Shown here: positions 1 to 57,186 of the stretch, in pieces
Layout: every line of letters begins with the position of its first letter
How positions within the stretch are numbered: position 1 is the stretch's first letter
Assembly: GCA_964400165.1 (NCBI GenBank)
Contig: CAYNSX010000004.1
Coordinates: 5,380-69,379, forward strand
Reading direction: 5' to 3'
Length of the DNA: 64,000 nucleotides
Source of the DNA: an uncultured bacterium
Lineage (GTDB): Bacteria; Armatimonadota; Hebobacteria; CAYNSX01
The notes under the pieces: model-generated
Database searches by the model: none
What the model was told of the DNA's origin: nothing
The model's input: only the letters and a program-made list of their open reading frames with translations
Made by a program: the position numbers and the translations under genes

Positions 1-2585
1 GCCAACTCGGGCCGCCCGCCGCCGCCGCCGCCCGCCACTGCCGCGACGCCGCGGATGAGGGTGCCGGCGTGGACGCCGCGCTTGACCAGGTCGGGCGACA
101 CGCCGCTGGCGAAGAGGACGCTGCCGTCGGTGACGCTCGCCAGCACCACGACCCCCGACCCGACCGCGCGGGTCAGTTCGTCGGCGACCATGCGCAGCGC
201 CTCGGCGCTGACGGACGGCACCCGCCCCGCCACGACGCGCACGCCGTTCACTTGCGCGGCGTTGTCAATCAGACCCCGTGCCGCCAGCGCCGCCGCCTTC
301 GCTTCGGCGGCGAGCGCGGCGCGCTCGCTTTCGGTCAGTTGCGCTTGCAGATGCGCGACGCGTTCCGGCACTTCCTCCGGTGGCGCAGCCAGCTGCGCGG
401 CCACCAATCGCTCACGGCCCGCTCGCGCAAGTTGATAGCGCACCGCGGCGAGTCCGGTCAGCGCCTCGACGCGCCGCAGGCCGGAGCCGATGCCGCTCTC
501 GCCGGTGAAAACGAACTCGCCGATCTGGCCGCTGGCGGTGCAGTGCGTGCCGCCGCAGAGTTCCTTCGAGACCCCACCGACGGCAATCATCCGCACCGTG
601 TCGCCGTACTTCTCGCCGAAGAGCGCCATCGCGCCCTTGGCGATGGCCTCGCGGTAGGGCAGCAAAGTCACGGTGACCGGATGGTCGGCGATGATTTGCT
701 CGCTGATCATCAGCGTGAGTTCGTCGAGTTCGTCGGGCGTCACGCCGTGGAAGTGCGAGAAGTCGAAGCGCAGCCGGTCGTTGTCCACCAGCGAGCCCGC
801 CTGCGCGACATGTACGCCGAGCTTCGTGCGCAGCGCCCAGTGCAGCAGGTGCGTCGCCGTGTGCGCGCGCATCAGCCCGCGCCGCCGGTCGGCGTCGACG
901 ACCGCTCGCGTGTCCTGCCCAACGCGGAGGGTGCCGGTTTCAATCTTGGCGCGGTGGACGGTCACACCATCGAGTGGGTGCTGCGTATCGGTGACCTTTG
1001 CGATCACCCCATCCGCCTGCAACACGCCGGTGTCGCCAATCTGGCCGCCCGACTCGCCGTAGTACGGCGAGTGGTCGAGGACGACCTCGACTTCCTCGCC
1101 CGCAGTCGCCTCCTGAACCGCCGCGCCCTCCTTTAGCAAACCGATGACTTTGCCGGCGCCTTCGGTCGCGTCGTAGCCGAGGAACTCCGTCTTGCCAACG
1201 AAGGGCGCGTAAGTCTTGGCGTCCGCGTACTTGAAGACCTTGGCGGCGTGCGCCTTCGCCCGCTGCCGCTGTTCTTGCATCGCCGCCTCGAATCCGGGCC
1301 GGTCCGGCGTCAATCCCCGCTCTTCAACGATTTCTTGCGTCAGTTCGACCGGGAAGCCGTAGGTGTCGTACAACTGAAACACAACCGCGCCTGGAAACAC
1401 GCTTTGCTTCGTCGCGCTAACTTCTGCGATGCTCTTTTCCAACAACTGCGTGCCCTGATCGAGCGTGCTCTGGAAGCGTTTCTCTTCTTCATGCAGCAGG
1501 CGCTCGGCGAACTCGCGGCGCTCACGCACATTCTGGTAATCCGCGAAGCCGCCGTAGTGCTCCGCAATCACTGCCGGATAGCGGTGCAGGAACGGCTCCT
1601 TGATGCCCAGCAGCGTGCCGAAGCGATAGGCGCGGCGAATGAGGCGCCGCAACGCATAGCCGCGGCCCTCGTTGGTCGGGATAACGCCATCGGCGAGCAG
1701 GAAAGTGACCGCTCGGGCGTGGTCGGCGATGACGCGGAACGCCCGCCGCGCCTTCGGGTCTACATCCACATCGGCGCTCGACTTCGCCGCCTTCAGCAGA
1801 TCACGCGTGAGGTCGTTGATCGGCGCGAAGAGGTCGGTGTCGAACACGCTCGGCACCCGCTGCATCACCAGCGCCAGCCGCTCCAAGCCCATGCCGGTGT
1901 CGATGCCGCGGCGCGCAAGCGGATTGTCCACGCCGTCGGGGTCGCGGTCGAACTGCGGGAAGACCAGATTCCAGAACTCGAAGAACCGCCCGCACGGCGA
2001 CCCGTCGGGCCGGGTGTTCTCGCACTCCGGCTTGCAGTCGGGCTTCCCGCAGCCGAATTCCGGCCCCAGGTCATAGTTGATTTCCGAACACGGCCCGCAC
2101 GGCCCCGTTGCGCCCACCGGCCCCCACCAATTGCTCTCGACCTTCACGATGCGCTCGGCGCGGATGCTGGTCAGCGTCATCCAGAGTTTCGCCGCCTCGT
2201 CGTCGCTCGGGTGGATGGTCACCCAGAACGGCGCCGGGTCGATGCGCATCCGCTCGACGAGGAACTCCCAAGCGAACTCGATGGCCTCGCGCTTGAAATA
2301 GTCGCCGAACGAGAAGTTGCCCAGCATCTCGAAGAACGACAGGTGGCGCGGCGTCAGGCCGACTGTCTCCAGGTCACCCGCCCGGGCGCACTTCTGCACG
2401 GTGGTCAGCCGCGGGGCGGGCGGGTCGGCGTCGCCCTTCCAAAAGGGGACGAACTGCTGCATGCCGGCGCTGGTGAAGAGCGTCGTCGGGTCGCTCGGAA
2501 TCAGCGACGAGCCGGGGCGCCGGAGATGGCCTTTCTCCTCAAAGAAGGCGAGGAAGATGTCGCGCAGTTCGTGGCCGGTTGGCAT
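1..2585 (-). CDS. alaS: alanine--tRNA ligase, partial (C-terminal end beyond window start)
   Basis: Minus-strand translation from the ATG at ~2583-2585 reads MPTGHELRDIFLAFFEEKGHLRRPGSSLIPSDPTTLFTSAGMQQFVP..., the canonical AlaRS N-terminus. The frame stays open to position 1 and ends in a Gly-rich C-Ala-like tail. It is absent from the ORF track because no stop codon lies inside the window. Confidence 0.9.
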   Translation of the reverse strand, partial: MPTGHELRDIFLAFFEEKGHLRRPGSSLIPSDPTTLFTSAGMQQFVPFWKGDADPPAPRLTTVQKCARAGDLETVGLTPRHLSFFEMLGNFSFGDYFKREAIEFAWEFLVERMRIDPAPFWVTIHPSDDEAAKLWMTLTSIRAERIVKVESNWWGPVGATGPCGPCSEINYDLGPEFGCGKPDCKPECENTRPDGSPCGRFFEFWNLVFPQFDRDPDGVDNPLARRGIDTGMGLERLALVMQRVPSVFDTDLFAPINDLTRDLLKAAKSSADVDVDPKARRAFRVIADHARAVTFLLADGVIPTNEGRGYALRRLIRRAYRFGTLLGIKEPFLHRYPAVIAEHYGGFADYQNVRERREFAERLLHEEEKRFQSTLDQGTQLLEKSIAEVSATKQSVFPGAVVFQLYDTYGFPVELTQEIVEERGLTPDRPGFEAAMQEQRQRAKAHAAKVFKYADAKTYAPFVGKTEFLGYDATEGAGKVIGLLKEGAAVQEATAGEEVEVVLDHSPYYGESGGQIGDTGVLQADGVIAKVTDTQHPLDGVTVHRAKIETGTLRVGQDTRAVVDADRRRGLMRAHTATHLLHWALRTKLGVHVAQAGSLVDNDRLRFDFSHFHGVTPDELDELTLMISEQIIADHPVTVTLLPYREAIAKGAMALFGEKYGDTVRMIAVGGVSKELCGGTHCTASGQIGEFVFTGESGIGSGLRRVEALTGLAAVRYQLARAGRERLVAAQLAAPPEEVPERVAHLQAQLTESERAALAAEAKAAALAARGLIDNAAQVNGVRVVAGRVPSVSAEALRMVADELTRAVGSGVVVLASVTDGSVLFASGVSPDLVKRGVHAGTLIRGVAAVAGGGGGGRPEL

Positions 2586-4357: not shown

Positions 4358-4451
4358 GACCAGGAAGGCGGGGAGGCGGTGACCAGTGTGTCATGACGAC
4401 GCGTGATTGCGCCGTTCCTGCTTCCCTGCCTCCCCGCCTCCCCGGTTCCTG
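4358..4451. repeat. family-A palindromic repeat element (GACCAGGAAGGCGGGGAGGCGG ... CCGCCTCCCCGGTTCCTG hairpin)
   Basis: Inverted-repeat arms of about 22-30 nt flank a ~35-nt loop. Closely related copies sit at 14498-14570 and 16245-16312, and a half copy at 5905-5948. Confidence 0.5.
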
Positions 4452-5904: not shown

Positions 5905-5948
5905 TCCTCCTCCCCGCCTTCCTGCCTCCCTGCCTCCCCCGTTCCCCA
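5905..5948. repeat. half copy (C/T-rich arm only) of the family-A repeat
   Basis: CCTCCTCCCCGCCTTCCTGCCTCCCTGCCTCCCCCGTTCCCC matches the right arm of the 4.4 kb, 14.5 kb and 16.3 kb copies. No matching G-rich left arm lies nearby. Confidence 0.35.
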
Positions 5949-10120: not shown

Positions 10121-12802
10121 ATGAGCCATCCCGCCTCGGCCCGCTGGATCGTCTGCAAGTTCGGCGGCACCAGCGTCGCCACGCGCGCTCGCTGGGACAC
10201 GATCGTCGCCATTGCACGCGAGCGCCTCGCCGAAGGGCTGCGCCCGGTCCTGGTGTGTTCCGCGCTCGACGGCGTCTCGGACGACCTCGAGCGCTGCGTC
10301 GAGGAGGCCGTTCGCGGCAAGCAGCAACCAATCCTGGACGCCATCGCCGCGACGCACTACGCGCTCGGCGACGCCCTCGGCCTCAATGCGGACACATTGC
10401 TCCGTGCCGACTTCGAGGTGCTGACCGGTCTTCTCGCGGCCATTGCGGAGGCGAAAGAGATCACTCCGGCTCGCCACGCCCGCGTCCTGGCGACGGGGGA
10501 ACTCCTCGCCACCCGCCTCGGCGCCGCGTTCTGCAACGCCTCCAGCCTGCCGACCGCCTGGGTGGACGCGCGCTCCTGCCTCGTGTCCACCGACGAGCAG
10601 CATGTCGGCGAGACGCGGCGCATGCTCTCCGCCGTCTGCGCCGCGGAACCGGACCCGGCTCTCGCCGCGCAATTCGCGGCGCTGCCCGAATCGGTCCTTG
10701 TGACGCAGGGGTTCATCGCCCGCTTGGCCGGCGGTGACACGGTCTGCCTGGGGCGCGGCGGCTCCGACACTTCGGCGGCGATCTTCGCCGCCCGGCTGGG
10801 CGCCGTCCACTGTGAAATCTGGACCGATGTGCCTGGGATGTTTTCCGCGGACCCGCGGCAGGTGCCCGCGGCGCGGCTGCTCCGGGCGCTCGACTACGAC
10901 GAGGCCCAGGAGATTGCGACGACCGGCGCCAAAGTGCTGCACCCGCGGTGCATCGCGCCGCTGCGCCAGCACCGCATCCCCCTCCACATCCGCTGGATCG
11001 AGCGACCGGAGTGGGCCGGAACCGTGGTGTCGGGTGACCCGGGCGAAGCCGGCCCGCAAATCAAGGCGATCTCCGCCAAAGGCGACATCACGCTCATCGC
11101 GATGGACACGCCCGGCATGTGGCAGCAGGTCGGTTTCCTCGCCGACACTTTCGCCGTCTTCCAGCGGCACGGCCTCTCGATTGACCTCGTGTCCACTTCC
11201 GAAATGAATGTCACCGTCTCGCTCGACCCGGGCGCCAACCTGCTCGACCCCGGCGCGCTGCATGCGCTGCTGGAAGACCTCCGCCCGCTGTGCACTCCGC
11301 GGACCATCGGCCCCTGTGCCGCGGTCAGTCTGATCGGGCGTAACATCCGAGGGCTGCTGCACGAACTGGGGCCCGCGCTCGAATTGTTCGGGGAGCACCG
11401 CATTCATCTCGTCTCGCAAGCGGCCAGCGACCTCAATTTTACCGTCGTCGTCGACGCCGGCCAGGCGGAGCCGCTCGTCCGGCAGCTGCACGCGCTCTTC
11501 TTCGAGGACCGGGCGGATGATGCGCTCCTCGGCCCGAGTTGGCGCAGTCTGTTTGCAGGCGGCGATGCGCCCGCAGCCACGGATGAAGTGACGGGCCCGA
11601 CGGTGTGGTGGCGCCAGCGGCGCGACGAATTGCTGGCCCTGGCGCGCGCCGCTGCGCCGCTCTATGTGAACGATGCCGCGTCGCTCGACGCCGCGGCCGC
11701 CCGCCTGCAGCGGCTCGCCGCCGTCGACCGCGTGTTCTACGCGCTCAAGGCCAACTCCCACCCCACGATCCTCGAGCGCTTCGCCGCCGCGGGGCTGGGG
11801 TTCGAATGCGTCTCGCCGGGCGAGATCGCCCGGGTCTTGCACACGGTCCCCAGGATCGATCGGCAGCGTATTCTCTTCACGCCGAACTTCGCCCCGCGCC
11901 ACGAATACGCCGACGCGTTCGCCGCCGGCGTGATGGTGACGCTCGACAACGCCTACCCGCTCGAGCGCTGGCCCGATATCTTCCGCGGCAGGGCGGTGTT
12001 CCTCCGCCTCGACCCGGGCCGCGGGCGTGGACACCATGCCTATGTCCGCACCGCCGGCGCGCAGTCGAAATTCGGCATCGCGGAGTTGCAACTCGACGAC
12101 CTCGCGGCGCGCCTCCGTGCATTGGATGTCCGGGTCATCGGCCTGCACGCGCATATCGGCAGCGGCATTCGTGACGCCGGCAGTTGGCTGGAAACGGCCG
12201 AGTTTCTGGCACGGAACGCAGCAAGATTCCCGGAAGTGACCGCGCTCGACCTCGGCGGCGGCCTCGGCGTCCCCGAACAGCCCGGTCAGGTGCCGCTCGA
12301 CTTGGCGGCGTTCGACGCGTCGTTGCAGCAGTTCAAGGCCGCGCACCCGCAGTTCGAACTGTGGCTGGAACCGGGGCGCTTCCTGGTCGCTGAAGCGGGC
12401 GTGCTCCTGGCGCGTGTGACGCAGGTTAAGCGCAAAGGCGACATCACCTTTGTCGGCATCGAGACCGGGATGAACTCACTCATTCGCCCGGCGCTCTACG
12501 GGGCGCACCACGAGATTGTGAACCTGACCCGCCTCGACGAACCGCCCGACCTGACGGCGAACATCGTCGGGCCGATTTGCGAATCCGCCGATGTCCTAGG
12601 CGCCGGCCGCCATCTGCCACCGACAGAGGAGGGCGATGTCTTGCTAATCGCCACCGCCGGCGCCTACGGCGCCGCCATGTCCTCGCACTACAACTTGCGC
12701 GAACCCGCCGCCGAAGTCATGTTGCCGCCGGCTACAACCGCGCCGCGGCGCACCAATTCGCGGAAAGGGCGCCCAGCGAAACAGCCGAGGCCCGCGCCGT
12801 GA
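10121..12802 (+). CDS. lysAC: bifunctional aspartate kinase / diaminopimelate decarboxylase (LysC-LysA fusion)
   Basis: The N-terminal ~450 aa are aspartokinase (..IVCKFGGTSVATRARWDTIVAI..VLVCSALDGVSDDL.. plus ACT-like region). The C-terminal ~430 aa are a PLP-dependent DAP decarboxylase (..PLYVNDAASLDAAAARLQ..VFYALKANSHPTILERFAAAGLGFECVSPGEIARV..). Confidence 0.8.
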   Translation: MSHPASARWIVCKFGGTSVATRARWDTIVAIARERLAEGLRPVLVCSALDGVSDDLERCVEEAVRGKQQPILDAIAATHYALGDALGLNADTLLRADFEVLTGLLAAIAEAKEITPARHARVLATGELLATRLGAAFCNASSLPTAWVDARSCLVSTDEQHVGETRRMLSAVCAAEPDPALAAQFAALPESVLVTQGFIARLAGGDTVCLGRGGSDTSAAIFAARLGAVHCEIWTDVPGMFSADPRQVPAARLLRALDYDEAQEIATTGAKVLHPRCIAPLRQHRIPLHIRWIERPEWAGTVVSGDPGEAGPQIKAISAKGDITLIAMDTPGMWQQVGFLADTFAVFQRHGLSIDLVSTSEMNVTVSLDPGANLLDPGALHALLEDLRPLCTPRTIGPCAAVSLIGRNIRGLLHELGPALELFGEHRIHLVSQAASDLNFTVVVDAGQAEPLVRQLHALFFEDRADDALLGPSWRSLFAGGDAPAATDEVTGPTVWWRQRRDELLALARAAAPLYVNDAASLDAAAARLQRLAAVDRVFYALKANSHPTILERFAAAGLGFECVSPGEIARVLHTVPRIDRQRILFTPNFAPRHEYADAFAAGVMVTLDNAYPLERWPDIFRGRAVFLRLDPGRGRGHHAYVRTAGAQSKFGIAELQLDDLAARLRALDVRVIGLHAHIGSGIRDAGSWLETAEFLARNAARFPEVTALDLGGGLGVPEQPGQVPLDLAAFDASLQQFKAAHPQFELWLEPGRFLVAEAGVLLARVTQVKRKGDITFVGIETGMNSLIRPALYGAHHEIVNLTRLDEPPDLTANIVGPICESADVLGAGRHLPPTEEGDVLLIATAGAYGAAMSSHYNLREPAAEVMLPPATTAPRRTNSRKGRPAKQPRPAP

Positions 12803-14497: not shown

Positions 14498-14570
14498 ACC
14501 AGGGAGGCGGGGAGGCGGGGAGGCAGTGGAGCATTGACTGCGTTCCCGCCTCCCTGCCTCCCTGCTTACC
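14498..14570. repeat. family-A palindromic repeat element between convergent genes
   Basis: GACCAGGGAGGCGGGGAGGCGGGGAGGCAG ... CGTTCCCGCCTCCCTGCCTCCCTGCTTACC. Confidence 0.5.
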
Positions 14571-16244: not shown

Positions 16245-16312
16245 GACCAGGAAGGCGGGAACGCAGGGAGGCAGTGACTGCCTTCCTGCCTTCCCGCCTC
16301 CCCGGTTCCTAG
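16245..16312. repeat. family-A palindromic repeat element abutting the stop codon of the peroxiredoxin gene
   Basis: GACCAGGAAGGCGGGAACGCAGGGAGGCAGTG-ACTGCCTTCCTGCCTTCCCGCCTCCCCGGTTCCTAG is a near-perfect palindrome. The TAG stop of the upstream gene lies at its edge. Confidence 0.5.
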
Positions 16313-16914
16313 TTTTTGCCCTGCAGTTCCGCGAGCTTCTTTGCCAGGTCGGCGCCGTGCGTCTTCACACTCACCTTCAGATCGATGTAGCGGACAACGC
16401 CGTCCGGGTCAATGATGAAGGTGCCGCGCTTGGACATGAATTGGACATCGAAGCCGCGCGCTTTCATTTGGGCTTGCTGGTCAGCCGTCAGCATCTGCAG
16501 CATCCCGTAGGACTTCGAGATCTTGCCGTCGGCGTCTACCAGCAGCGGAAACTGGAAGTTGTTCTTCTCGGCGAACTCCTTGTGCGTCTCCTTGCCCTGC
16601 GCGCTGATGATGAAAATGGAAGCGTTGAGTGCTTTCAGATTGGCTTGCTCATCACGGAGCGAGCACCCCTGCAGCGTTCAGCCCCCCGTATTGTCGAGGA
16701 CATAGAACGAGAGGATGACCCAGTCCTTCCCCTTGTGGTCGGCGAGGCGCTGTCGCTTGTCGTTCTGATCGGTGGTGTCGAAGAGGGGGGCCTTGTCGCC
16801 CGCCTTCAGTTGCGGTTCGTCCACTGTCGGTCCTTCCGCGGCGGTCACGCGCGGCGCCGCCAGCATCACGGCGACCAGCGCGCACACGCCCAGCATCCGA
16901 ATGGCTTGTCGCAT
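16309..16914 (-). CDS. secreted BCP/PrxQ-type peroxiredoxin with in-frame TGA (candidate selenocysteine) at the peroxidatic-Cys position; 201 codons if read through
   Basis: Track ORFs 16678..17013 and 16309..16503 lie in the same frame and are separated only by a TGA at 16678-16680. The read-through product ..WVILSFYVLDNTGG[TGA]TLQGCSLRDEQ..GTFIIDPDGVVRYI.. aligns with E. coli Bcp ..[23 protein letters not shown].., so the TGA sits on CP and the resolving Cys is kept. An N-terminal signal peptide (MRQAIRMLGVCALVAVMLAAPRVTA) is present. Confidence 0.6.
16643..16664 (-). ncRNA. candidate bacterial SECIS hairpin 14 nt downstream of the in-frame UGA
   Basis: mRNA UGA-ACGCUGCAGGGGU-[GCUcGCUC-CGUGAU-GAGCaAGC]: an 8-position stem with one C.A mismatch and a 6-nt apical loop containing GU at +26/+27 relative to the U of UGA. 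The spacing is close to the 11-nt-spacer / apical G,U rule known from E. coli fdhF. Confidence 0.35.
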
Positions 16915-16945
16915 TGCGCTCTCCAATTCTCCAGCCCCGCGTATC

Positions 16946-17392
16946 TTACTCGGTTTTGGAAGTGCTCTCCCCCGGCCAGTGCAGCGGCATCGTCGGGCGG
17001 TCGAGCATCTCACGCACCTTCACCGGCGCGTCGGGCGCCGGATGCAGGCGCGGCAGGTCGCCCGGAGCCGCCGGGTCGCGCCCGAAGGCGGCGACGAAGC
17101 GGTCGAGGTCGCGCCGCAGCCGCGCCAAGTCGATGCCGCGGTAGCGCGGCGGCAGTTGGTCGAGTTTCTCGATGCAGTGTTCGTGCAGCCCGCGCACGCC
17201 GGCGAGATTGCCCCGGCTCCAGTGATAGACCGTCACCGCCGCCTGAATCAGCGCGTGATAGAAAGTGCGCTCGTCGCCGTGCACCTGCTTCCACAACGCT
17301 TCCAGCACCTCGTGACACTGGAAGTAGTCGCCCTCGTTGAACAGGGCGATGCCGCGCAGGAAGTCGGGGTGCAGCGCCGGGTCAGGCGGCAT
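16946..17392 (-). CDS. DUF309-family protein
   Basis: ..LRGIALFNEGDYFQCHEVLEALWKQVHGDERTFYHALIQAAVTVYHWSRGNLAGVRGL.. is the DUF309 signature. The start is M70 of the track ORF; it overlaps the upstream peroxiredoxin stop by about 11 nt. Confidence 0.55.
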   Translation of the reverse strand: MPPDPALHPDFLRGIALFNEGDYFQCHEVLEALWKQVHGDERTFYHALIQAAVTVYHWSRGNLAGVRGLHEHCIEKLDQLPPRYRGIDLARLRRDLDRFVAAFGRDPAAPGDLPRLHPAPDAPVKVREMLDRPTMPLHWPGESTSKTE

Positions 17393-17873
17393 TCCTCGCC
17401 GCGGCGAGCACCTCGTCGAACGGCGGCAGTTCGCGGATGTTCTCCCGCACATCGGCATACACGATTTTTCCGTCGCGGCCGATGACGAAAGTGGCCCGCT
17501 CCGAAAACCCCTGCGGGCGGAGGACGCCGTACAGTTCCGCCGCCTTGCCGTGCGGCCAGAAATCGGAGGCGACCGGATAGGGCAGCCCGGCCGGCGCAAT
17601 CGCCTTCACCCAGGCCTTCTTCGCCGGCATGCTGTCCACGCTGATGGAAACGACCTGCGCGCCGGCCTGGGCGTAGCGCTGCCATTCTTTCCCGACCGTG
17701 CACACCTCCGTCTCGCAAACGGCGGTGAACGCCAGCGGGTGAAACATCAAGATGACCGGCCCGTTCTTCAGGGACTCGCTCAACTTGACGGTGACATCCT
17801 TGACCTCCGGCTGCGAGACGAAGCCGGGCAGTTCGAAGTCGGGTGCGGTATCGCCTGCCTTCAGTGGTGGCAT
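17382..17873 (-). CDS. peroxiredoxin (AhpC/TSA / Prx5-like, Cys-type)
   Basis: MPPLKAGDTAPDFELPG..GPVILMFHPLAFTAVCETEVCTV..ATFVIGRDGKIVYADV.. carries the T-x-x-C peroxidatic motif. Confidence 0.8.
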   Translation of the reverse strand: MPPLKAGDTAPDFELPGFVSQPEVKDVTVKLSESLKNGPVILMFHPLAFTAVCETEVCTVGKEWQRYAQAGAQVVSISVDSMPAKKAWVKAIAPAGLPYPVASDFWPHGKAAELYGVLRPQGFSERATFVIGRDGKIVYADVRENIRELPPFDEVLAAARNAA

Positions 17874-17929
17874 CGTTGGGTCTCCTTCATTTCATGCAAA
17901 TGGGATCGCTCTCAACTCCTGGACGCTTG

Positions 17930-18150
17930 TTCTCCCCTCTCCCGAGTCGGGAGAGGGACTTCGCGTCTACCACTTGTTTAATCCTCTCCCCTCTCCGCTC
18001 GTCGGAGAGGGGCTGGGGGTGAGGGCTTTGTCCCCCTCACCCGGCCTGCGGCCACCCTCTCCCGTTTGGGAGAGGGACTACTCATCTACCATTCGTATTC
18101 AATGCCCCCTCTCCTCACAGGAGAAGGGGTCAGGGGGCTTGCCCTTCGTA
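17930..18150. repeat. tandem array of four family-B hairpin units (CCTCTCCC-N5-6-GGGAGAGGG ACT...TCTACCA)
   Basis: Hairpins TCTCCCgagtcGGGAGA, CTCTCCgctcgtcGGAGAG, CTCTCCCgtttGGGAGAG and CTCTCCtcacaGGAGAAG recur about every 55 bp between the aquaporin stop and the peroxiredoxin start. A related pair occurs at 23104-23235. Confidence 0.5.
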
Positions 18151-18175
18151 GCCTTGGCGTAGAAGGGTGAGGCCG

Positions 18176-18898
18176 TCACGCGGCGTCGGGCCGCTTCTGC
18201 AAAAGCAGCGCATACACCCACGCCGCCATCGCGCCGCCCCCCAGTGGCCCCGCCCAATACACCCAGTGGTTGGCCCAATCCATCTGCACCAGCGCCGGCC
18301 CGAACGAGCGCGCCGGATTCATCGAGGCGCCGGTCAGCGGCCCGGCGGCCAGAATATCGAGCACGATGGTCCCGCCGATGGCCAGCCCCGCGGCGCCGGC
18401 GGGCGCGCGCCCGTCCACGGCGACACCGAAAATGACAAACACCAGCAGGAAAGTCAGCACCGCCTCGATGCCTACGCCGGTCGCCGGCGTGATGTTCGAG
18501 GCCAGCATCGTCGCGCCGAGGTGCGTGTCCGTCGTCGCATCCAGCGGGTAGAGCAGCGAGATGAGCAGCGCACCCAGTGACGCCCCCGCCAATTGCACGA
18601 AGACATAGCCGAGTGCCTTCCCGAGTCCGATGCGCCCCGCCAACAGCATCCCGAAAGTCACTGCTGGATTGATGTGCGCCCCGCTGATATGGCCGGTGGC
18701 GTAGACCATCACCATAATGGCGAAGCCGTGCGCCAGTGCGATGCCGACGAGCCCCAATTGCAGCCCGGTCAGCACCACTCCGAACTGCTCCATTGACCTC
18801 GCGGTCGTCGAGTTCATCGCAATGGCGCCGATGCCGATAAAGCACAGCGTGAAAGTGGCGATGAACTCGGCGATGTACGGCTGCGCCCCGCGTCCCAT
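18176..18898 (-). CDS. aqpZ: aquaporin (MIP family, AqpZ/GlpF-like)
   Basis: Two NPA boxes (..SGAHINPAVTFG.. and ..GASMNPARSFGPA..) and six TM helices. Confidence 0.85.
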   Translation of the reverse strand: MGRGAQPYIAEFIATFTLCFIGIGAIAMNSTTARSMEQFGVVLTGLQLGLVGIALAHGFAIMVMVYATGHISGAHINPAVTFGMLLAGRIGLGKALGYVFVQLAGASLGALLISLLYPLDATTDTHLGATMLASNITPATGVGIEAVLTFLLVFVIFGVAVDGRAPAGAAGLAIGGTIVLDILAAGPLTGASMNPARSFGPALVQMDWANHWVYWAGPLGGGAMAAWVYALLLQKRPDAA

Positions 18899-31854: not shown

Positions 31855-33291
31855 ATGACCACGGACGCCCTCATCGCGGAACTGCGCCGCCTGCTCGGAC
31901 CCGAGGCCGTCTTCTCGCGGCCGGAGGAACTGGCCGTCTACGAATGCGACGCCTACACCGTCCCGAAGATGCGGCCCGAGGCGGTCGTCCTGCCGCGCAA
32001 CACCGACGAAGTGGCGGCGGTGGTGCGGCTGTGCGCCCGGGCGCGGGTGCCTTTCGTCCCGCGCGGCGCGGGCACGGGGTTGAGCGGCGGCACGCTCCCC
32101 ACCCGCGGCGGCGTGATGATCGGCTTGAGCCGGATGAACCGCATCGTCGCGGTGGACATCGCCAACCGCCGGGCGGTGGTCGAGGCGGGATTGGTGAACC
32201 TGCGCCTGACCGAGGCGGTCAGCAGCCGCGGGCTGTGCTTCGCGCCCGACCCGAGCAGCCAGATGGTCTCGACCATCGGCGGCAATGTCGCCGAGAACGC
32301 CGGCGGCCCGCACACACTGAAGTACGGCGTCACCACCAATCATGTGCTCGGCGTGGAACTGGTGCTGCCCGACGGCGAGGTGGTCTGGTGCGGCGCCGCG
32401 GTCGAAGACCTGCCCGGCCTCGACCTGACGGGCGTCGTCGTCGGCTCCGAGGGCACCTTCGGCATCGTGACGAAGGCGATCGTGCGGCTGGTGCCGCTGC
32501 CGCAGGGCTGGCGGACACTGCTGGCCATTTTCCCGAGCATCGACACGGCGAGCCGGGCGGTGTCGGGCATTCTCGGCGCCGGCGTGACGCCGGCGGCGCT
32601 GGAGATGATCGACCAGACGATGCTGCGCGCCATCGAGGAGGCGTTCCACTACGGCTTCCCGACCGACGCCGGCGCGGTGCTGCTGGTGGAACTCGACGGC
32701 ATCGAAGCGGGCCTCGACGCGCAGGCGGACCGCGTCGAGAAGGTGTGCGCGGAGTCGGGGGCGGTCGAAGTGCGCCGGGCGCACGACGCCGACGAGCGCG
32801 CCCATTTCTGGAAGGCGCGCAAGATGGCGGTGGGCACGGTCGGGCGCCTGGCGCCGAGCGTGGCGACGCAAGACGGCGTCATTCCGCGCACCAAACTCCC
32901 CGAGGCGCTGAAGCGCATCGACGAGATCGCGGCGCGGCACCGGGTGCGCATTTGCCATGTCTTCCACGCCGGCGACGGCAACCTGCATCCCGTCACGCTC
33001 TTTGACGAGCGCGACGCCGACGAGGCGCAGCGGGTCCTCGCCGCCGGCATGGACATCCTGCGGGTGTGCATCGACCTGGGCGGCAGTCTCACCGGCGAAC
33101 ACGGCATCGGCACCGAGAAACTCGACGCGATGGCGCTGATGTTCACCGACGACGACCTGGCGGTCTTCCGCCGGGTGCGCGAGGCGTTCAATCCCGACGG
33201 GCTGTGCAATCCCGGCAAAGTGGTGCCGACGGGCGCCGAATGCCGCGAATTGCGAGTCAAGCAGGCCGCGGCGCCGGGCGCATGGGTTTGA
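31855..33291 (+). CDS. glcD: glycolate oxidase subunit GlcD (FAD-linked oxidase)
   Basis: ..VVLPRNTDEVAAVVRLCARARVPFVPRGAGTGLSGG.. (FAD PCMH) and a C-terminal FAD-oxidase domain. Confidence 0.85.
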   Translation: MTTDALIAELRRLLGPEAVFSRPEELAVYECDAYTVPKMRPEAVVLPRNTDEVAAVVRLCARARVPFVPRGAGTGLSGGTLPTRGGVMIGLSRMNRIVAVDIANRRAVVEAGLVNLRLTEAVSSRGLCFAPDPSSQMVSTIGGNVAENAGGPHTLKYGVTTNHVLGVELVLPDGEVVWCGAAVEDLPGLDLTGVVVGSEGTFGIVTKAIVRLVPLPQGWRTLLAIFPSIDTASRAVSGILGAGVTPAALEMIDQTMLRAIEEAFHYGFPTDAGAVLLVELDGIEAGLDAQADRVEKVCAESGAVEVRRAHDADERAHFWKARKMAVGTVGRLAPSVATQDGVIPRTKLPEALKRIDEIAARHRVRICHVFHAGDGNLHPVTLFDERDADEAQRVLAAGMDILRVCIDLGGSLTGEHGIGTEKLDAMALMFTDDDLAVFRRVREAFNPDGLCNPGKVVPTGAECRELRVKQAAAPGAWV

Positions 33292-34454
33292 GCGCGGCGG
33301 GGCTGGGCCACAGCCTCCGCGTCCGCAGCGCGGGAGAAGTGGCGGCGGCGCTGCGCGCGGCGACCGCGGACAACGGCACTGTGTTTCCCGTCGGCGGCGG
33401 CACCCACCAGTTTCTCTCCGACCTGCCGGCGGACGGCGCGACTTTCCTGCACCTCGCCGACCTCGACGACCTGGTGGACTATCAACCGGCCGACTTGACG
33501 GTGACCGTCGGGCCGGGAATGTCGCTCGCCCGCCTGCAGCACACGCTCGCCGAGAAGAAACAATGGGTCGCGCTCGAAGCAGCCGACGCGGAGCGGGCGA
33601 CCATCGGCGGCATTCTGGCGACCGGCTGGGCGGGGCCGCTGCGTCTCGGCCACGGCCGCCCGCGCGACCAAGTGCTCGGGATGCGGTTCGTGACCGGCGA
33701 CGGCGTGCTGGCTAAAGCGGGCGGGCGGGTGGTGAAGAATGTGGCGGGCTACGATGTCTGCCGGCTGCTGTGCAGCAGCCACGGAACGCTGGCGGTCATC
33801 ACGGAGGTGACGCTGCGCGTCCGGCCGCTGCCGGAACGCGAGGAGACTGTGGTGGCGCGGTTCGACGGCGCCGAGGATGCGGTGCATGCCGCCGAGGCGG
33901 TGTGGCGGACGCGCTGGGCGCCGACAATGCTGACGCTGCAGATCGAGCAGCAGTCGGCACGGCTGTTCATCGGGTCGGACGGCGACCCCGACTCCGTCGC
34001 CGCGCAGAGCGCGGCGCTCGCCGAGTTGCTGCGCATCCGCGGCGCGCAGCCGCAAGTGCTGCGCGAGGACCGGTGGAACGAGGCGCCGCCGCGGCAGGCG
34101 CTGCGCGCCGCCGCGGTGCCCGAGTCGGGGCACGGGCTGCGGGTGTCGCTGCTGCCGAGCGACCTGGGCGCGCTGCTGACGACGGTGGGAAGCGAGTCGC
34201 AGTCGGCGGTGGCGCACTACGCGTCGGGGATCGCGCACCTGCGCTTCGCGCCGGGGGCGGTGGCGGCGATGCGGGCAGTGCGGAAGTTCGCGCTGAAGCA
34301 CGGCGGCGCGGCGGTGCTGGAAGGGCCGGGCGTGGACGGCTTCTCGCGTTGGGGCCCGCGGCGGCCCGATTTCCCGCTGATGCAGCGCTTGAAGACCGCT
34401 TTCGACCCAAAGAGTGTCCTGCCGCCGCTGCCATTCGGCGAGGCGCCCCAATGA
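33282..34454 (+). CDS. glcE: glycolate oxidase FAD-binding subunit GlcE
   Basis: ..VFPVGGGTHQF..TIGGILATGWAGPLRLGHGRPRDQVLGMRFVTGDGVLAKAGGRVVKNVAGYD.. The ATG overlaps the glcD stop (ATGGGTTTGA). The upstream part of track ORF 33066.. is an artefact. Confidence 0.75.
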   Translation: MGLSAAGLGHSLRVRSAGEVAAALRAATADNGTVFPVGGGTHQFLSDLPADGATFLHLADLDDLVDYQPADLTVTVGPGMSLARLQHTLAEKKQWVALEAADAERATIGGILATGWAGPLRLGHGRPRDQVLGMRFVTGDGVLAKAGGRVVKNVAGYDVCRLLCSSHGTLAVITEVTLRVRPLPEREETVVARFDGAEDAVHAAEAVWRTRWAPTMLTLQIEQQSARLFIGSDGDPDSVAAQSAALAELLRIRGAQPQVLREDRWNEAPPRQALRAAAVPESGHGLRVSLLPSDLGALLTTVGSESQSAVAHYASGIAHLRFAPGAVAAMRAVRKFALKHGGAAVLEGPGVDGFSRWGPRRPDFPLMQRLKTAFDPKSVLPPLPFGEAPQ

Positions 34455-35671
34455 GTGAGCCCGCCCGCGCCGAACTCGACCAATTGAGCCAGGCCTGCAT
34501 CCACTGCGGGCTGTGCTTGGAGGCGTGCCCGACCTACCGCGTCCTGGGCTCGGAGATGGACTCGCCGCGCGGGCGCATTTATCTGATGCGCGCCGTCCTG
34601 CATGACGAATTGCAGCCGACCGCGACGGTGCAGAAACACCTCGACCGTTGCGTCGGCTGCCGGGCGTGCGAACCGGCGTGTCCGTCGGGGATGCAATACG
34701 GGCGATTGCTCGAGGGGTTCCGCGCCGCGGTGTCGGAACCGGCGCGACCGCGCGGCTGGCGGCGGACAGTGGTGCGCGCGCTGATTCGGACGGTGCTGCC
34801 GCACCCCGCCCGCTTGCGCCGGGCGCTGGCGTGGGGCGCGTTCGCTCGCGCGATCGCGCGCCTGTTCAAGCGCCGCGGGCCGCTGCCGCTGGCGCTTGAT
34901 TCGCTGCCGCAGCCGCAGGCGCGACTGCCGCTGCCGGAGACGACATACGCGGGAGGCGCGCGCGGGCGCGTCGGGTTCTTGCGCGGCTGCGCGATGTCCG
35001 TGCTGTTCCCGGCCGTGAATGCCGATACCGTGCGCGTCCTCGCCGCGGCGGGCTACGCGGTCGTGACGCCGCCGCAGCAGGGCTGCTGCGGCGCGCTGGC
35101 CGCGCATGACGGCGATCACGCGGGCGCGGCGCAGTTCGCGCGGGCGCTGATCGCGGCGTTCCCGACCGACTTGGAATGCATCGTGACGAACTCCGCCGGC
35201 TGCGGCGCCGCTATGAAACAATACGGCCACCTGCTCGGCGATGAGGACGGCGCCCGGTTCGCCGCCACGGTGCGCGATGTCAGCGAAGTGCTGGTCGATA
35301 CTCCGTTGCCGCTCGTCGAGCGGAAACAGCGCGTCGCCTACTACGACCCCTGCCACCTGAAGAACGGCCAGGGCATCACAAAGCAACCGCGGGCGCTGCT
35401 GCGAGCGGCGCCGGGCGTGGAATTGGTCGAACTCGGCGCGCTCGGCTGCTGCGGCGGCGCCGGCGCCTACTTCCTGACGCAGCCCGGACTCTCGCAATCG
35501 CTGCTCGATGCGCTGATGGACTGCGTCGCCGAGGCGAAGCCCGATGTTGTCGTCACCGGCAACCCGTCGTGCCTGCTGCAGTTGCAGAAAGGGGTGGCCC
35601 AGCGCGGCCTGACCATCCCCGTCCAGCACCTCGCCGAGTTCCTGGCTGAATCGCTTTCGACAGACCCTTGA
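34451..35671 (+). CDS. glcF: glycolate oxidase iron-sulfur subunit GlcF
   Basis: MSEPARAELDQLSQACIHCGLCLEACPTYRV..LDRCVGCRACEPACPSG.. (2x 4Fe-4S) plus two CCG domains. ATGA overlap with the glcE stop. Confidence 0.8.
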   Translation: MSEPARAELDQLSQACIHCGLCLEACPTYRVLGSEMDSPRGRIYLMRAVLHDELQPTATVQKHLDRCVGCRACEPACPSGMQYGRLLEGFRAAVSEPARPRGWRRTVVRALIRTVLPHPARLRRALAWGAFARAIARLFKRRGPLPLALDSLPQPQARLPLPETTYAGGARGRVGFLRGCAMSVLFPAVNADTVRVLAAAGYAVVTPPQQGCCGALAAHDGDHAGAAQFARALIAAFPTDLECIVTNSAGCGAAMKQYGHLLGDEDGARFAATVRDVSEVLVDTPLPLVERKQRVAYYDPCHLKNGQGITKQPRALLRAAPGVELVELGALGCCGGAGAYFLTQPGLSQSLLDALMDCVAEAKPDVVVTGNPSCLLQLQKGVAQRGLTIPVQHLAEFLAESLSTDP

Positions 35672-35759
35672 CAGGACATCCACAGGATTGGCATACTAAT
35701 AAAACAAAAGTTTGAATATCGAGACGCATGGAAAGTCTGTACAGTCCGAAGGGAAAGCC

Positions 35760-36701
35760 ATGAGTCGAGAAAAGAACGGCAGAGTTAACAAAGGGCGACG
35801 CGAACGCAGCAGATACCTCTCCCCAATCTATCTGGATGGCATCCTAACAGTCAGAGAGCAGCTTGCGCTCTATGGCTACAAGGTCATCCAACGGAAGACA
35901 CGGGGACGAAAATTCATCGCATTTGGATGGTACGGTGGCAAGTTTTCTCATCTCGATTGGCTCCTGCCGCTGCTGCCCTCGTGTCACCACTACTGCGAAC
36001 CTTTTGGCGGCTCTGCTGCGGTTCTGTTGAATCGGCCCCCTTGTCCCGTGGAAACATACAACGATATTGACGGAGAGGTAGTGAATTTCTTCCGAATCCT
36101 TCGCAGCCGACCAGAGCGACTACTCAAGGAGATTGCGCTCACACCCTTTTCCCGGGAAGAGTTCTTCTTTGCCTGCACAACCAATGGTCAGCGCATAACT
36201 GACCTTGAGCGTGCAAGGAGATTCTTCGTTCGCGCACGACAGGTAAGAACGGGACTTGCGCAGAGTGCAAGCCTTGGTCGTTGGGCAAACTGCAAGAACA
36301 CCACCCGTTCGGGAATGTCTGGCGTCGTGTCACGATGGCTTGGGAGCGTTGACACTCTGCCATCGGTCGCAGAGAGATTGCTGCGAGTGCAAATCGAGAA
36401 CCGCCCAGCTGCCGATCTCGTCAAGCTGTACGATGACAAGGGGACTCTTTTCTACTGTGACCCACCCTATCCCCACGAGGCACGCGGAGATGACAAGGCG
36501 TATGGCGCAGAGATGACAGACGAAGAGCATGCAGAGCTGTCAGAACTCTTGGTGCGCGCAAGAGGCAAGGTGGCTGTCTCGGGCTACCGTTGCAAGCTTA
36601 TGGACAAGCTATACAAGGGATTCCGTCGTATCGATGCTCCAACAAAGCTCTGCCATTCAACCAAGGGACCACGCACCGAATCCCTCTGGATCAACTACTG
36701 A
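35760..36701 (+). CDS. Dam-family (alpha-class, D12) N6-adenine DNA methyltransferase
   Basis: Motif X FGWYGGK, motif I EPFGGSAAVLL and motif IV YCDPPY occur in the Dam order. GC is about 50%, far below the flanks. Confidence 0.7.
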   Translation: MSREKNGRVNKGRRERSRYLSPIYLDGILTVREQLALYGYKVIQRKTRGRKFIAFGWYGGKFSHLDWLLPLLPSCHHYCEPFGGSAAVLLNRPPCPVETYNDIDGEVVNFFRILRSRPERLLKEIALTPFSREEFFFACTTNGQRITDLERARRFFVRARQVRTGLAQSASLGRWANCKNTTRSGMSGVVSRWLGSVDTLPSVAERLLRVQIENRPAADLVKLYDDKGTLFYCDPPYPHEARGDDKAYGAEMTDEEHAELSELLVRARGKVAVSGYRCKLMDKLYKGFRRIDAPTKLCHSTKGPRTESLWINY

Positions 36702-36719
36702 GTTACGACAAGTCCGCGA

Positions 36720-37805
36720 ATGCCTGATCTGAATCTCGAAGCCGCGCGTGAAGTACTTGAGCGCCTCTTCACCGAAGTGGAGGGCGAACTGCTTGAGGGC
36801 ACCGTTCCCTCAGTCGACCCGCGATTCAACGATGCGATCTCACATGTGTTCAGATCCTCCACTCAATCATACAGAGAGATCCTCCTTGGCTGCATCCTGG
36901 CCCGTCTCCAGGACAAGAGCATCGACATTCACCTCCCCTATGTTGGCCTAGGAGAGAATTCATACCACGGCAGAAAACTGGATGAAGACGTGGTGAATCC
37001 ATTCCTGCACGCTCACCAAATCCCAAGCACGCGGGGTGCCTTTCTAGCGGTCTTCCGCAGGTCGGTCAGTTTCGTCCCCGAGACTCGGGAGGGACTGAAA
37101 GATACAGCCGGATATGATTCCCTGCTCATCCTAATCGACTACCTTGCTCAAGAAGTGGACGATGGAGCGATAGAAAGTTTTCTAAAAGTGCTGTTGGCAA
37201 AGTTGGTCGAAGTTCGTGAGGGTGCACGTATTGAGCTAATCAATCTGCAACGACTGAGCGCGGATCAATATGGCGCATTGATTGACGGGCTCCTGGCAAG
37301 ACAGAGTGGGGGGAGATTTCCAGTCATGCTGGTCGCGGCTGCTTTCGAGGCGCTCCGCGAGAGATTCCACTTGCCCTGGGAGATACAGACACAAGGGATC
37401 AATGTAGCGGACCTTCCATCGAAGTTCGGTGGAGACATCGTAATCCTGGAAGGTGACAGGACAGTTTTGGCCGCAGAGGTCACCGAACGACGGATCGACA
37501 AAGAGCGAGTCGTGGCCACGTTTCAGGCCAAAATTGGCCCACAAGGGATTGATGACTACTTGTTCTTTGTCACTGCGGACGTGGATGAGTCAGTGATGCG
37601 CCAATCCAGGCAGTACTTCACCCAAGGTCATGAAGTGAGCTTTGTGCTCATAAAGGGTTGGATTCTCGCAATTTTGCTGACGATCGGCCCTGACGGTCGA
37701 AGGGCCTTCAACAATGCATTGTTGGAACGGTTGTCAGACTCAACGGTACCCTCTTCGCTGAAGGCCATTTGGAACGAACTGATGGTCGTGCTTACAGAAG
37801 TTTGA
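36720..37805 (+). CDS. hypothetical 361-aa protein immediately downstream of the methyltransferase; putative restriction endonuclease partner
   Basis: No recognised motif; the call rests only on adjacency and co-orientation with the Dam-like MTase and the shared low GC. A possible PD-(D/E)xK-like stretch ..GGDIVILEGDRTVLAAEVTERRIDKER.. is not convincing. Confidence 0.3.
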   Translation: MPDLNLEAAREVLERLFTEVEGELLEGTVPSVDPRFNDAISHVFRSSTQSYREILLGCILARLQDKSIDIHLPYVGLGENSYHGRKLDEDVVNPFLHAHQIPSTRGAFLAVFRRSVSFVPETREGLKDTAGYDSLLILIDYLAQEVDDGAIESFLKVLLAKLVEVREGARIELINLQRLSADQYGALIDGLLARQSGGRFPVMLVAAAFEALRERFHLPWEIQTQGINVADLPSKFGGDIVILEGDRTVLAAEVTERRIDKERVVATFQAKIGPQGIDDYLFFVTADVDESVMRQSRQYFTQGHEVSFVLIKGWILAILLTIGPDGRRAFNNALLERLSDSTVPSSLKAIWNELMVVLTEV

Positions 37806-57064: not shown

Positions 57065-57186
57065 GGCTTCAGCCCCCTTGTGGCAAGCCAACATGCCAAT
57101 GCCCTGACTTCGTGCGCGGCGCCTCAATCCCTGCCACCCTGCCCCTGCCCTGCGTAGCCCGGAGGGCGAAGCAGGGTCCCTGGTCC

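What the first reader, a model, noticed from the sequence alone, without database searches (positions are those of the whole stretch)
16309..16914. In-frame TGA exactly at the peroxidatic cysteine of a secreted BCP/PrxQ peroxiredoxin: candidate selenocysteine peroxiredoxin
Seen in the sequence: two same-frame minus-strand ORFs are separated only by a TGA at 16678-16680. Read through, they give ..SFYVLDNTGG-U-TLQGCSLRDEQ.., which aligns residue for residue with E. coli Bcp ..[20 protein letters not shown]... The stop codon therefore replaces CP, and the resolving Cys five residues later is retained. A Cys-to-Sec swap at the catalytic residue, with a downstream hairpin in SECIS position, is the classic selenoprotein signature and is unlikely to be a random nonsense mutation. 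The protein also carries an N-terminal signal peptide, so it would be an exported selenoprotein, which is uncommon. A Cys-type paralog sits two genes upstream.
Basis: partly seen in the sequence, partly recalled or inferred. Interest (0 to 1): 0.85.

Follow-up and report, generated by a model that had tools for sequence, protein, structure and literature searches.

The report
Exported selenocysteine peroxiredoxin (BCP/PrxQ type)
This gene for a secreted peroxide-destroying enzyme has a UGA "stop" exactly where its catalytic cysteine should be, and comparison with relatives shows the codon is almost certainly read as selenocysteine; the call is sound, but this kind of selenoprotein has been known for about 20 years.

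Summary
A minus-strand gene (16914..16309) has one in-frame TGA (16678-16680). Read through, it gives a 201-aa protein whose AhpC/TSA domain spans the TGA end to end. The TGA aligns with the peroxidatic Cys of E. coli Bcp and of 89 Cys-type homologues.

It is not an error or a pseudogene:
- The TGA recurs in five independent metagenome assemblies covering three orthologue lineages (about 99%, about 93% and 72.5% aa identity).
- The 58 codons after the TGA contain no ATG/GTG/TTG, yet evolve under strong purifying selection (dN/dS 0.04).
- More distant BCPs that gene callers split in two were TGA-split at the same column in 6 of 6 cases tested.
- All Sec-type sequences carry a hairpin about 21 nt after the UGA that meets the published bacterial SECIS model. 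It is maintained through changes in coding. In the window alone it is weak.

selA, selB, selD and tRNA-Sec are absent from the window and could not be looked for in the rest of the genome.

Sec-peroxiredoxins with a TxxU site, including COG1225/Bcp-type ones, have been described since 2001-2005. This is therefore a new member of a known kind. The minor peculiarities are a signal peptide, Val in place of the motif Pro, a mobile resolving Cys, and a deep-branching uncultured host.

The parts
16309..16914 (-). Complete coding sequence of the Sec-type BCP/PrxQ-like peroxiredoxin (201 aa including Sec79; stop TAG at 16309-16311)
   Evidence: AhpC-TSA profile 2-124/124 across the TGA. (alignment to E. 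coli Bcp). (nearest solved structures are BCPs 3drn and 5enu).
16919..16924 (-). Shine-Dalgarno-like GGAGAG, 4 nt upstream of the ATG
   Evidence: Read from the sequence. Conserved in the sister genome.
16837..16914 (-). Predicted Sec-type signal peptide (residues 1-26, cleavage after VTA)
   Evidence: By inspection only: R2 and R6, a 14-residue hydrophobic core, and V-T-A before the cleavage site. Conserved in L001 and L095. C11 is Ser in the orthologues, so this is not a lipobox.
16687..16689 (-). Codon of the catalytic Thr76 (T of TxxU)
16678..16680 (-). In-frame TGA, the proposed Sec79 codon at the peroxidatic position
16663..16665 (-). Codon of Cys84, the candidate resolving Cys at +5
   Evidence: It shifts to +4 in L001 and is absent in L096.
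16643..16664 (-). SECIS-like hairpin: GCU-C-GCUC / loop CGUGAU / GAGC-A-AGC. The loop starts 21 nt after the UGA.
   Evidence: Constraints of the bSECIS model are taken from PMC13188914.
16426..16428 (-). Codon of the conserved catalytic Arg163 (in KRGTFIID)
   Evidence: aligns with the R of E. coli Bcp HRISFLID.
16246..16306 (-). Very stable hairpin immediately after the stop codon. It is a copy of a repeated palindromic element and probably acts as a transcript end or stabiliser.
   Evidence: -61.1 kcal/mol, z -8.15. (related copies at 4418, 5914 and 14506).
16946..17392 (-). DUF309 gene between the two peroxiredoxin genes, on the same strand
   Evidence: PF03745 in the syntenic loci.
17382..17873 (-). 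Cys-type cytoplasmic peroxiredoxin paralogue (163 aa, PLAFTAVCETEVC)
18176..18898 (-). MIP/aquaporin gene heading the conserved cluster
   Evidence: PF00230 in the syntenic loci.

Best explanation
The gene encodes an exported BCP/PrxQ-type peroxiredoxin in which the peroxidatic residue is selenocysteine. Inferred: the UGA at 16678-16680 is decoded by Sec-tRNA(Sec) delivered by SelB, which is recruited by the hairpin about 21 nt downstream. Inferred: the signal peptide sends the protein through the Sec translocon to the cell envelope. There Sec79 (activated by Thr76 and Arg163) attacks a peroxide and forms a selenenic acid. This is then resolved by Cys84 as an intramolecular selenenylsulfide, or directly by an envelope thiol reductant. 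Shown: the fold and family; the position of the UGA on the catalytic Cys column; conservation of the UGA; selection on the downstream codons; and a hairpin shared by Sec-type relatives. The gene is the last of a conserved cluster of aquaporin, cytoplasmic Prx, DUF309 and Sec-Prx.
For: (1) Full-length AhpC/TSA match across the TGA. The best NCBIfam models are PrxQ and Bcp, and the nearest PDB chains are BCPs. (2) The TGA lies opposite the CP Cys of E. coli Bcp and of 89 of 89 Cys-type homologues. (3) The same TGA occurs in five independent assemblies: L004 (two synonymous SNPs), L095, and L001/L002/L003 at 72.5% aa identity. The frame is intact on both sides. (4) Codons 80-137 contain no ATG/GTG/TTG. 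Against L095 they show 11 synonymous and 2 non-synonymous changes, dN/dS 0.04, Fisher p 8e-7. Across the whole downstream part dN/dS is 0.13 (L095) and 0.40 (L001), against 0.00 (L095) and 0.38 (L001) for the mature part upstream of the TGA. (5) All 6 truncated BCP fragments from the protein searches that I looked up are TGA-split at the CP column, in different genomic contexts. (6) All 7 distinct Sec-type sequences have a hairpin whose 5' arm lies on the Ser-Leu codons and whose loop lies on the Arg-Asp codons. The 3' arm is encoded by differing residues (EQ, ER, AAN, AAD, ELN, SEL), and there is one compensatory G-C to A-U change. MFE is -7.8 to -15.3 kcal/mol. GC-corrected MFE is lower than in 81 Cys-type homologues (Mann-Whitney p 2e-4). 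(7) The window hairpin meets all four bSECIS model constraints quoted in PMC13188914: a 6-nt loop, G at loop position 2 followed by U, 21-nt spacing, and -8.6 kcal/mol. (8) TGA is an ordinary stop for 11 of the 31 complete predicted genes in the window. No other gene is interrupted by it.
Against: No selA, selB, selD or tRNA-Sec is present in the window, or in any of the loci carrying a Sec-type BCP or flanking regions of the sister genome. The rest of the genome could not be read, and no close relative is in the GTDB representative set. The window's own hairpin is not significant against shuffles or against synonymous resampling (90 of 500), and it has a C.A mismatch. The seven Sec-type sequences are not all independent, since three are close relatives. 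The universal Prx Pro is Val here. There is no direct evidence of selenium incorporation or of export.
Confidence: 0.88

Rival explanations
1. UGA at this site is read through without selenium. Cys, Trp or Gly would be inserted by a suppressor or near-cognate tRNA, or by a Sec-like system recoded to deliver Cys. The product would then be an ordinary Cys-Prx, or an inactive variant, made at low level.
For: The Sec machinery was not found in any sequence available. The window hairpin is weak on its own.
Against: The UGA lies only on the redox-active Cys column, and the same is true in many unrelated BCP lineages. That is the signature of a Sec/Cys pair. A shared hairpin fits the SelB-dependent model. 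TGA is a normal stop in 11 of 31 window genes and interrupts no other gene. A TGC or TGT codon would achieve Cys insertion far more efficiently.
Confidence: 0.06
2. It is a pseudogene: a TGC or TGT to TGA nonsense mutation inactivated a Cys-type BCP.
For: A single base change converts a Cys codon to TGA. Gene callers split the gene.
Against: The TGA is retained in orthologues with dS of about 0.5 and 72% aa identity, with no frameshift or second stop in 123 downstream codons. Downstream dN/dS is 0.04-0.45. The catalytic Thr and Arg are kept. No Cys-type orthologue above 41.7% aa identity (full-length tblastn; 46% to P0047 over the C-terminal part alone) was found among 5.8 billion proteins, 1.84 billion cluster representatives or the fetched loci.
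Confidence: 0.03
3. Two separate products are made: a 78-residue secreted peptide ending at the UGA, and an independently initiated C-terminal protein.
For: ORF callers annotate two genes.
Against: The first canonical start after the TGA in the window is codon 138, yet codons 80-137 are strongly conserved at protein level. The starts chosen by gene callers differ between orthologues. Neither half is a complete thioredoxin fold.
Confidence: 0.02
4. It is a sequencing or assembly error at one base.
For: None beyond the prior possibility.
Against: The identical TGA is present in contigs from five different datasets: JGI 3300010391, Logan ERR14788471, JGI 3300033233, ENA ERZ27248239 and Logan SRR10861649.
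Confidence: 0.01

Closest known systems
Sec-containing peroxiredoxin family 'Prx (TxxU)' of bacterial selenoproteome surveys. It is listed under COG1225 in the Sargasso Sea study (43 genes), with 12 genes in sequenced bacteria in 2006.
   Same: AhpC/TSA fold, with Sec replacing the peroxidatic Cys in a T-x-x-U site. Cys homologues are widespread, and a SECIS hairpin lies just downstream (PMC1088965, PMC1794560, PMC13188914). COG1225 being the Bcp group is from my own knowledge.
   Different: I could not align it to a named member of that set. This protein has Val instead of Pro in PxxxTxxU and an N-terminal signal peptide. It comes from a deep-branching uncultured lineage rather than from Deltaproteobacteria, Clostridia or marine plankton.
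E. coli Bcp and PrxQ (Cys-type atypical 2-Cys peroxiredoxins)
   Same: 34% identity over 149 residues. CP and CR (+5) are in the same columns, and the catalytic Thr and Arg are conserved. They are the best NCBIfam and PDB matches.
   Different: Sec instead of Cys at CP. Exported rather than cytoplasmic. An insertion of about 12 residues precedes the Arg. Scores fall below both equivalog cut-offs (83.6 against 260; 80.4 against 140).
PrxU of Eubacterium acidaminophilum (NCBIfam NF040737), the biochemically characterised Sec-peroxiredoxin
   Same: A peroxiredoxin with Sec at the peroxidatic position.
   Different: It belongs to a different Prx subfamily. The window protein scores 51.9 bits against a cut-off of 270.
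Prx-like thiol:disulfide oxidoreductase (UxxC) and Prx-SUH (CxxU) selenoproteins
   Same: AhpC/TSA-related fold containing Sec.
   Different: Sec sits in a different motif (a thioredoxin-like UxxC, or CxxU). Prx-SUH scores 23.5 bits against a cut-off of 298.

Membership tests
Peroxiredoxin (AhpC/TSA, PF00578) | Full-length match to the domain model above the gathering score | tested here: met
   112.9 bits against a cut-off of 26, profile 2-124/124, residues 39-177 spanning the TGA.
Peroxiredoxin (AhpC/TSA, PF00578) | Active-site motif PxxxT/SxxC(U) plus the distal catalytic Arg | tested here: inconclusive
   Thr76, U79 and Arg163 are in place. The Pro at -7 is Val (YVLDNTGGU). It is also Val in the L096 clade (FVKAKTPGU) but Pro in L100, L101 and L102.
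BCP/PrxQ subfamily | Closest to BCP/PrxQ models and structures, with the resolving Cys at CP+5 | tested here: met
   The top NCBIfam hits are PrxQ and Bcp. The top PDB hits are 3drn and 5enu, with further BCP and AhpC/TSA-family chains among the 12. C84 aligns with the E. coli Bcp CR.
BCP/PrxQ subfamily | Scores above the NCBIfam equivalog cut-offs (NF053650, NF006960) | tested here: not met
   83.6 against 260 and 80.4 against 140 bits. This is a divergent branch, not an equivalog of either.
Bacterial selenoprotein (SelB/SECIS-dependent UGA decoding) | In-frame UGA aligned with Cys in homologues (Sec/Cys pair) | tested here: met
   89 Cys against 5 TGA at that column. Four further TGA-type loci (L096, L100, L101, L102).
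Bacterial selenoprotein (SelB/SECIS-dependent UGA decoding) | UGA conserved in orthologues, with coding conservation on both sides | tested here: met
   Downstream dN/dS is 0.04-0.45.
Bacterial selenoprotein (SelB/SECIS-dependent UGA decoding) | bSECIS hairpin: loop 3-9 nt, stem of at least 4 bp, G in the first two loop positions, 16-37 nt after the UGA, MFE no higher than -7.5 kcal/mol | tested here: met
   Loop CGUGAU, 4+3 bp stem, spacing 21 nt, -8.6 kcal/mol. Model constraints come from PMC13188914. It is weak against shuffles for the window alone, but conserved among Sec-type relatives and not among Cys-type ones.
Bacterial selenoprotein (SelB/SECIS-dependent UGA decoding) | Genome encodes selA, selB, selD and tRNA-Sec (selC) | not testable with these tools
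   Absent from the 64-kb window and from all fetched loci of relatives.
Bacterial selenoprotein (SelB/SECIS-dependent UGA decoding) | Selenium is actually incorporated at the UGA | not testable with these tools
   This needs 75Se labelling or mass spectrometry.
PrxU (NF040737) | Score above the equivalog cut-off | tested here: not met
   51.9 against 270 bits.
Sec-translocon exported protein | Cleavable N-terminal signal peptide | tested here: inconclusive
   By inspection only: a positively charged n-region, a 14-residue hydrophobic core and a VTA|AE site. It is a 35-residue extension relative to E. coli Bcp and is conserved in orthologues. No predictor was available.

The most novel reading that the evidence does not exclude
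The window protein and its relatives form an exclusively Sec-type, envelope-exported branch of BCP peroxiredoxins. In this branch the canonical Pro is replaced by Val (VxxxTxxU), and the resolving Cys is unconstrained: +5 here, +4 in the sister genome, absent in the L096 clade. That would suggest a recycling chemistry different from cytoplasmic Bcp, namely direct reduction of a selenenic acid or selenenylsulfide by an extracytoplasmic partner. It would also document Sec use in a deep, unnamed Terrabacteria or Armatimonadota-like lineage.
Probability: 0.3. Interest if true: 0.45.

Novelty: new member of a known kind. Interest (0 to 1): 0.3.

Why it matters
For annotation, the two ORF fragments should be merged into one selenoprotein gene. 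The same mis-annotation affects many BCP fragments in public protein catalogues: all 6 fragments I tested were TGA-split. Biologically, the gene implies that this poorly sampled, high-GC lineage has the Sec-decoding trait and places a selenium-dependent peroxidase in its cell envelope, next to an aquaporin and a cytoplasmic Cys-peroxiredoxin. It does not change what is known about selenoproteins, because Sec-peroxiredoxins are an established family.

Tried and rejected
- **Sec machinery in the window and loci.** tblastn with E. coli SelA, SelB and SelD, plus ARAGORN and Rfam, found nothing. The only hit was a SelD fragment in an unrelated Cys-type locus (L084).
- **Extending into the sister genome.** A look-up via its AlaRS added about 10 kb with no sel genes. 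Further walking is not possible because only window or search-returned proteins can be looked up.
- **GTDB representative genomes.** The scan found only distant Cys-type BCPs (at most 36% identity) and did not identify the organism.
- **Metagenome scan.** It returned only one close relative, already known, plus 79 Cys-type BCPs. I used these as a control set.
- **Other in-frame TGA genes in the window.** A screen on GC3 gave 19 candidates. All but 16678 lie antisense to, or out of frame with, real genes. The GlcF-like CCG protein, whose family has Sec forms, has no in-frame TGA.
- **Rfam at permissive threshold around the gene.** This gave only sub-threshold miRNA-like hits on the long terminator hairpin, and none on the SECIS-like hairpin.
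- **Strict column-wise covariation counting.** I abandoned this because the stem register shifts by 1 nt between clades and L102 has a 5-nt longer loop that MAFFT did not gap. I compared the pairs by hand instead.
- **Literature on secreted Sec-BCP/PrxQ.** Searches found nothing specific.
- **Genome-wide reassignment of TGA.** Rejected, because TGA ends 11 of 31 complete predicted genes in the window.

Full report
**Observation.** On the minus strand an ATG at 16914 follows a GGAGAG Shine-Dalgarno-like motif. It opens a frame that runs to TAG at 16311-16309 and is interrupted once, by TGA at 16680-16678. The read-through product is 201 aa. Pfam AhpC-TSA matches residues 39-177 to profile positions 2-124 of 124, so the domain spans the TGA (E 1.2e-32). 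BLASTP against E. coli K-12 Bcp gives 34% identity. It places the TGA opposite the peroxidatic Cys of TPGC and places C84 opposite the resolving Cys five residues later. The nearest solved structures are BCP-type peroxiredoxins, 3drn and 5enu. The best NCBIfam models are PrxQ and Bcp, although both score below their equivalog cut-offs. The PrxU model, which represents the characterised Sec-Prx, scores only 52 bits against a cut-off of 270.

**Not an error or a pseudogene.** The same TGA is present in contigs from five independent datasets:
- L004 is about 99% identical in nucleotides and differs by two synonymous SNPs.
- L095 is about 93% identical in amino acids.
- L001, L002 and L003 are 72.5% identical in amino acids.

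The sister genome keeps the whole neighbourhood: FBPase class V, MIP aquaporin, 163-aa Prx, DUF309, split Prx, then a gene for an unknown protein of about 530 aa. In the window there is no ATG, GTG or TTG between the TGA and codon 138. Even so, codons 80-137 differ from L095 by 11 synonymous and only 2 non-synonymous changes (dN/dS 0.04, Fisher p 8e-7). Over the whole downstream part dN/dS is 0.13 (L095) and 0.40 (L001). For the mature part upstream of the TGA it is 0.00 (L095) and 0.38 (L001). The downstream half is therefore translated, and only decoding of the UGA can achieve that.

**Sec/Cys pair across the family.** In tblastn alignments of the fetched loci, the column is Cys in 89 homologues and TGA in 5. 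A phmmer search of 1.84 billion representatives with the C-terminal half returned many proteins of 100-115 aa that begin M-(x)-x-C-S-L-R-D, immediately after the CP position. I looked up six truncated fragments (P0001, P0045, P0046, P0055, P0061, P0067). All six are the downstream halves of TGA-split BCP genes, in different genomic contexts:
- ..FFVKAKTPG*TIQMQSLRD..
- ..FYPMAMTPG*TREVCSLRD..
- ..FYPMDMTPG*TMEVCSLRD..
- ..FFPKANSKG*TAEMCSLRD..

No Cys-type orthologue above 41.7% aa identity (full-length tblastn) was found in the word-index search of 5.8 billion proteins, in the phmmer search, where the best full-length Cys-type hit, P0047, is 46% identical over the C-terminal part alone, or among the fetched loci.

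**SECIS.** All seven distinct Sec-type sequences carry a hairpin at the same place. The 5' arm lies on the Ser-Leu codons (nt 18-25 after the U of UGA), and the loop lies on the Arg-Asp codons (CGUGAU, GGA, CGGGAU, or an 11-nt loop). The 3' arm is encoded by different residues in each lineage: EQ, ER, AAN, AAD, ELN and SEL. L101 shows a compensatory G21-C34 to A21-U34 change. The register shifts by 1 nt between clades. The core hairpins fold at -7.8 to -15.3 kcal/mol. After regression on GC content, the MFE of nt 10-52 is lower in the Sec-type sequences than in 81 Cys-type homologues (Mann-Whitney p 2e-4). The Sec-type sequences are not all independent.

The window's own hairpin meets all four constraints of the published bSECIS model. 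It has a 6-nt loop, G at loop position 2 followed by U, 21-nt spacing and -8.6 kcal/mol (PMC13188914). It also contains a C.A mismatch and is not significant by itself: z is -0.36 for 71 nt and -1.35 for the 27-nt core, and 90 of 500 synonymous resamplings fold at least as well. The hairpin is thus family-level support, not stand-alone proof.

**Other readings of UGA.** TGA ends 11 of the 31 complete predicted genes in the window. No other real gene is interrupted by it. Long ORFs of up to 1855 aa and full-length Pfam matches argue against a reassigned code. Site-specific non-Sec readthrough cannot be formally excluded without the machinery or proteomics.

**What could not be tested.** selA, selB, selD and tRNA-Sec are absent from the window and from about 930 kb of fetched loci. 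These loci include about 40 kb of the sister genome. The organism is not among the GTDB representatives. Its AlaRS is 77% identical to that of the sister contig and only about 50% identical to anything named, with an Armatimonadota MAG first, followed by Bacillota and Chloroflexota. SLH and Cu-amine-oxidase-N1 domain proteins fit a Terrabacteria-like envelope.

**Mechanism (inferred).** The signal peptide, MRQAIRMLGVCALVAVMLAAPRVTA|AEGP, is conserved in the orthologues. C11 is Ser in those orthologues, so this is not a lipoprotein. The signal peptide should send the protein through the Sec translocon. In the envelope, Sec79, positioned by Thr76 and Arg163, would reduce peroxides. Cys84 would resolve the selenenic acid as a selenenylsulfide. 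An unidentified extracytoplasmic thiol system would then recycle the enzyme. The resolving Cys moves to +4 in the sister genome (U-TLQC) and is missing in the L096 clade. The universal Prx Pro is Val in both of those clades. The resolving step is therefore not tightly constrained.

**Comparison with what is known.** Sec-peroxiredoxins are established. PrxU of Eubacterium acidaminophilum was characterised in 2001. [quoted passage not shown] It had 12 members, and five inferred Cys-to-Sec conversions, in the 2006 survey of bacterial genomes. It is listed as experimentally supported in a 2026 review. COG1225 being the Bcp group is from my own knowledge. The window gene works like these proteins and is best filed with the TxxU, Bcp-type Sec-Prx group. 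It is not a PrxU equivalog, nor a Bcp or PrxQ equivalog, by NCBIfam cut-offs.

**Verdict.** Novelty is that of a new member of a known kind. The minor peculiarities are export, Val in place of Pro, a mobile resolving Cys, and the host lineage. Interest is 0.3.

Noticed in passing
window 16246-16306; related copies at 4418-4438, 5914-5934 and 14506-14526: A GC-rich palindromic element (GGCGGGRAGGCAGGRAGGCAG and its complement) forms a -61 kcal/mol hairpin (z -8) directly after the Sec-Prx stop codon. Related copies recur at other gene ends in the window: 5 matches against 0.01 expected. It looks like a REP-like intergenic repeat family.
   Followed up: partly
window 16309-18898 (minus strand); L001 7917-10339: The gene order MIP aquaporin, cytoplasmic Cys-Prx (163 aa), DUF309, exported Sec-Prx is conserved in the sister genome. 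An aquaporin next to two peroxiredoxins hints at a peroxide-handling module, and DUF309 may belong to it.
   Followed up: partly
L001 9953-9970 against window 16660-16677; L096 9992-10009: The resolving Cys is at +5 in the window (U-TLQGC), at +4 in the 72%-identical orthologue (U-TLQCN), and absent in the L096 clade (U-TIQMQS).
   Followed up: partly
window 16699-16701 (Val72); L096 9968-9970: The Pro of the universal Prx motif PxxxTxxC is Val in the window clade (YVLDNTGGU) and in the L096 clade (FVKAKTPGU). It is Pro in the other Sec-type and Cys-type homologues.
   Followed up: partly
protein hits P0046, P0054, P0055, P0061, P0063, P0067, P0090, P0110, P0148, P0152 and others: Public protein catalogues hold many BCP fragments of about 100-115 aa that start just after the catalytic position. 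All 6 truncated fragments I looked up (four of them from this set) were halves of TGA-split genes, which suggests Sec-type BCPs are widely mis-annotated as two ORFs.
   Followed up: yes
window 35712-37805: A low-GC island (about 0.55 against 0.66 for the window) carries a D12-class N6-adenine DNA methyltransferase and an adjacent 361-aa ORF with no Pfam match. It may be a horizontally acquired restriction-modification module.
   Followed up: no
window 3-2585 (AlaRS) and the whole window: The host is a deep, poorly sampled lineage. Its AlaRS is 77% identical to that of one sister metagenome contig and about 50% identical to everything else, with an Armatimonadota MAG as the nearest named hit. 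No close relative is in the GTDB species representatives.
   Followed up: partly
window 52706-58273 (minus strand): An 1855-aa ORF carries three C-terminal SLH domains and PQQ_2/BamB-like beta-propeller repeats. It is probably a large cell-surface protein.
   Followed up: no
window 10121-12802 (plus strand): An 893-aa fusion of an aspartokinase-type AA_kinase domain with an Orn/DAP/Arg decarboxylase domain (LysC-LysA-like). It is conserved in the sister genome.
   Followed up: no
window 31855-35671 (plus strand): A glycolate-oxidase-like cluster: two FAD_binding_4 proteins and a Fer4/CCG GlcF-like protein. The CCG protein, whose family has Sec-containing members elsewhere, has no in-frame TGA.
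   Followed up: no
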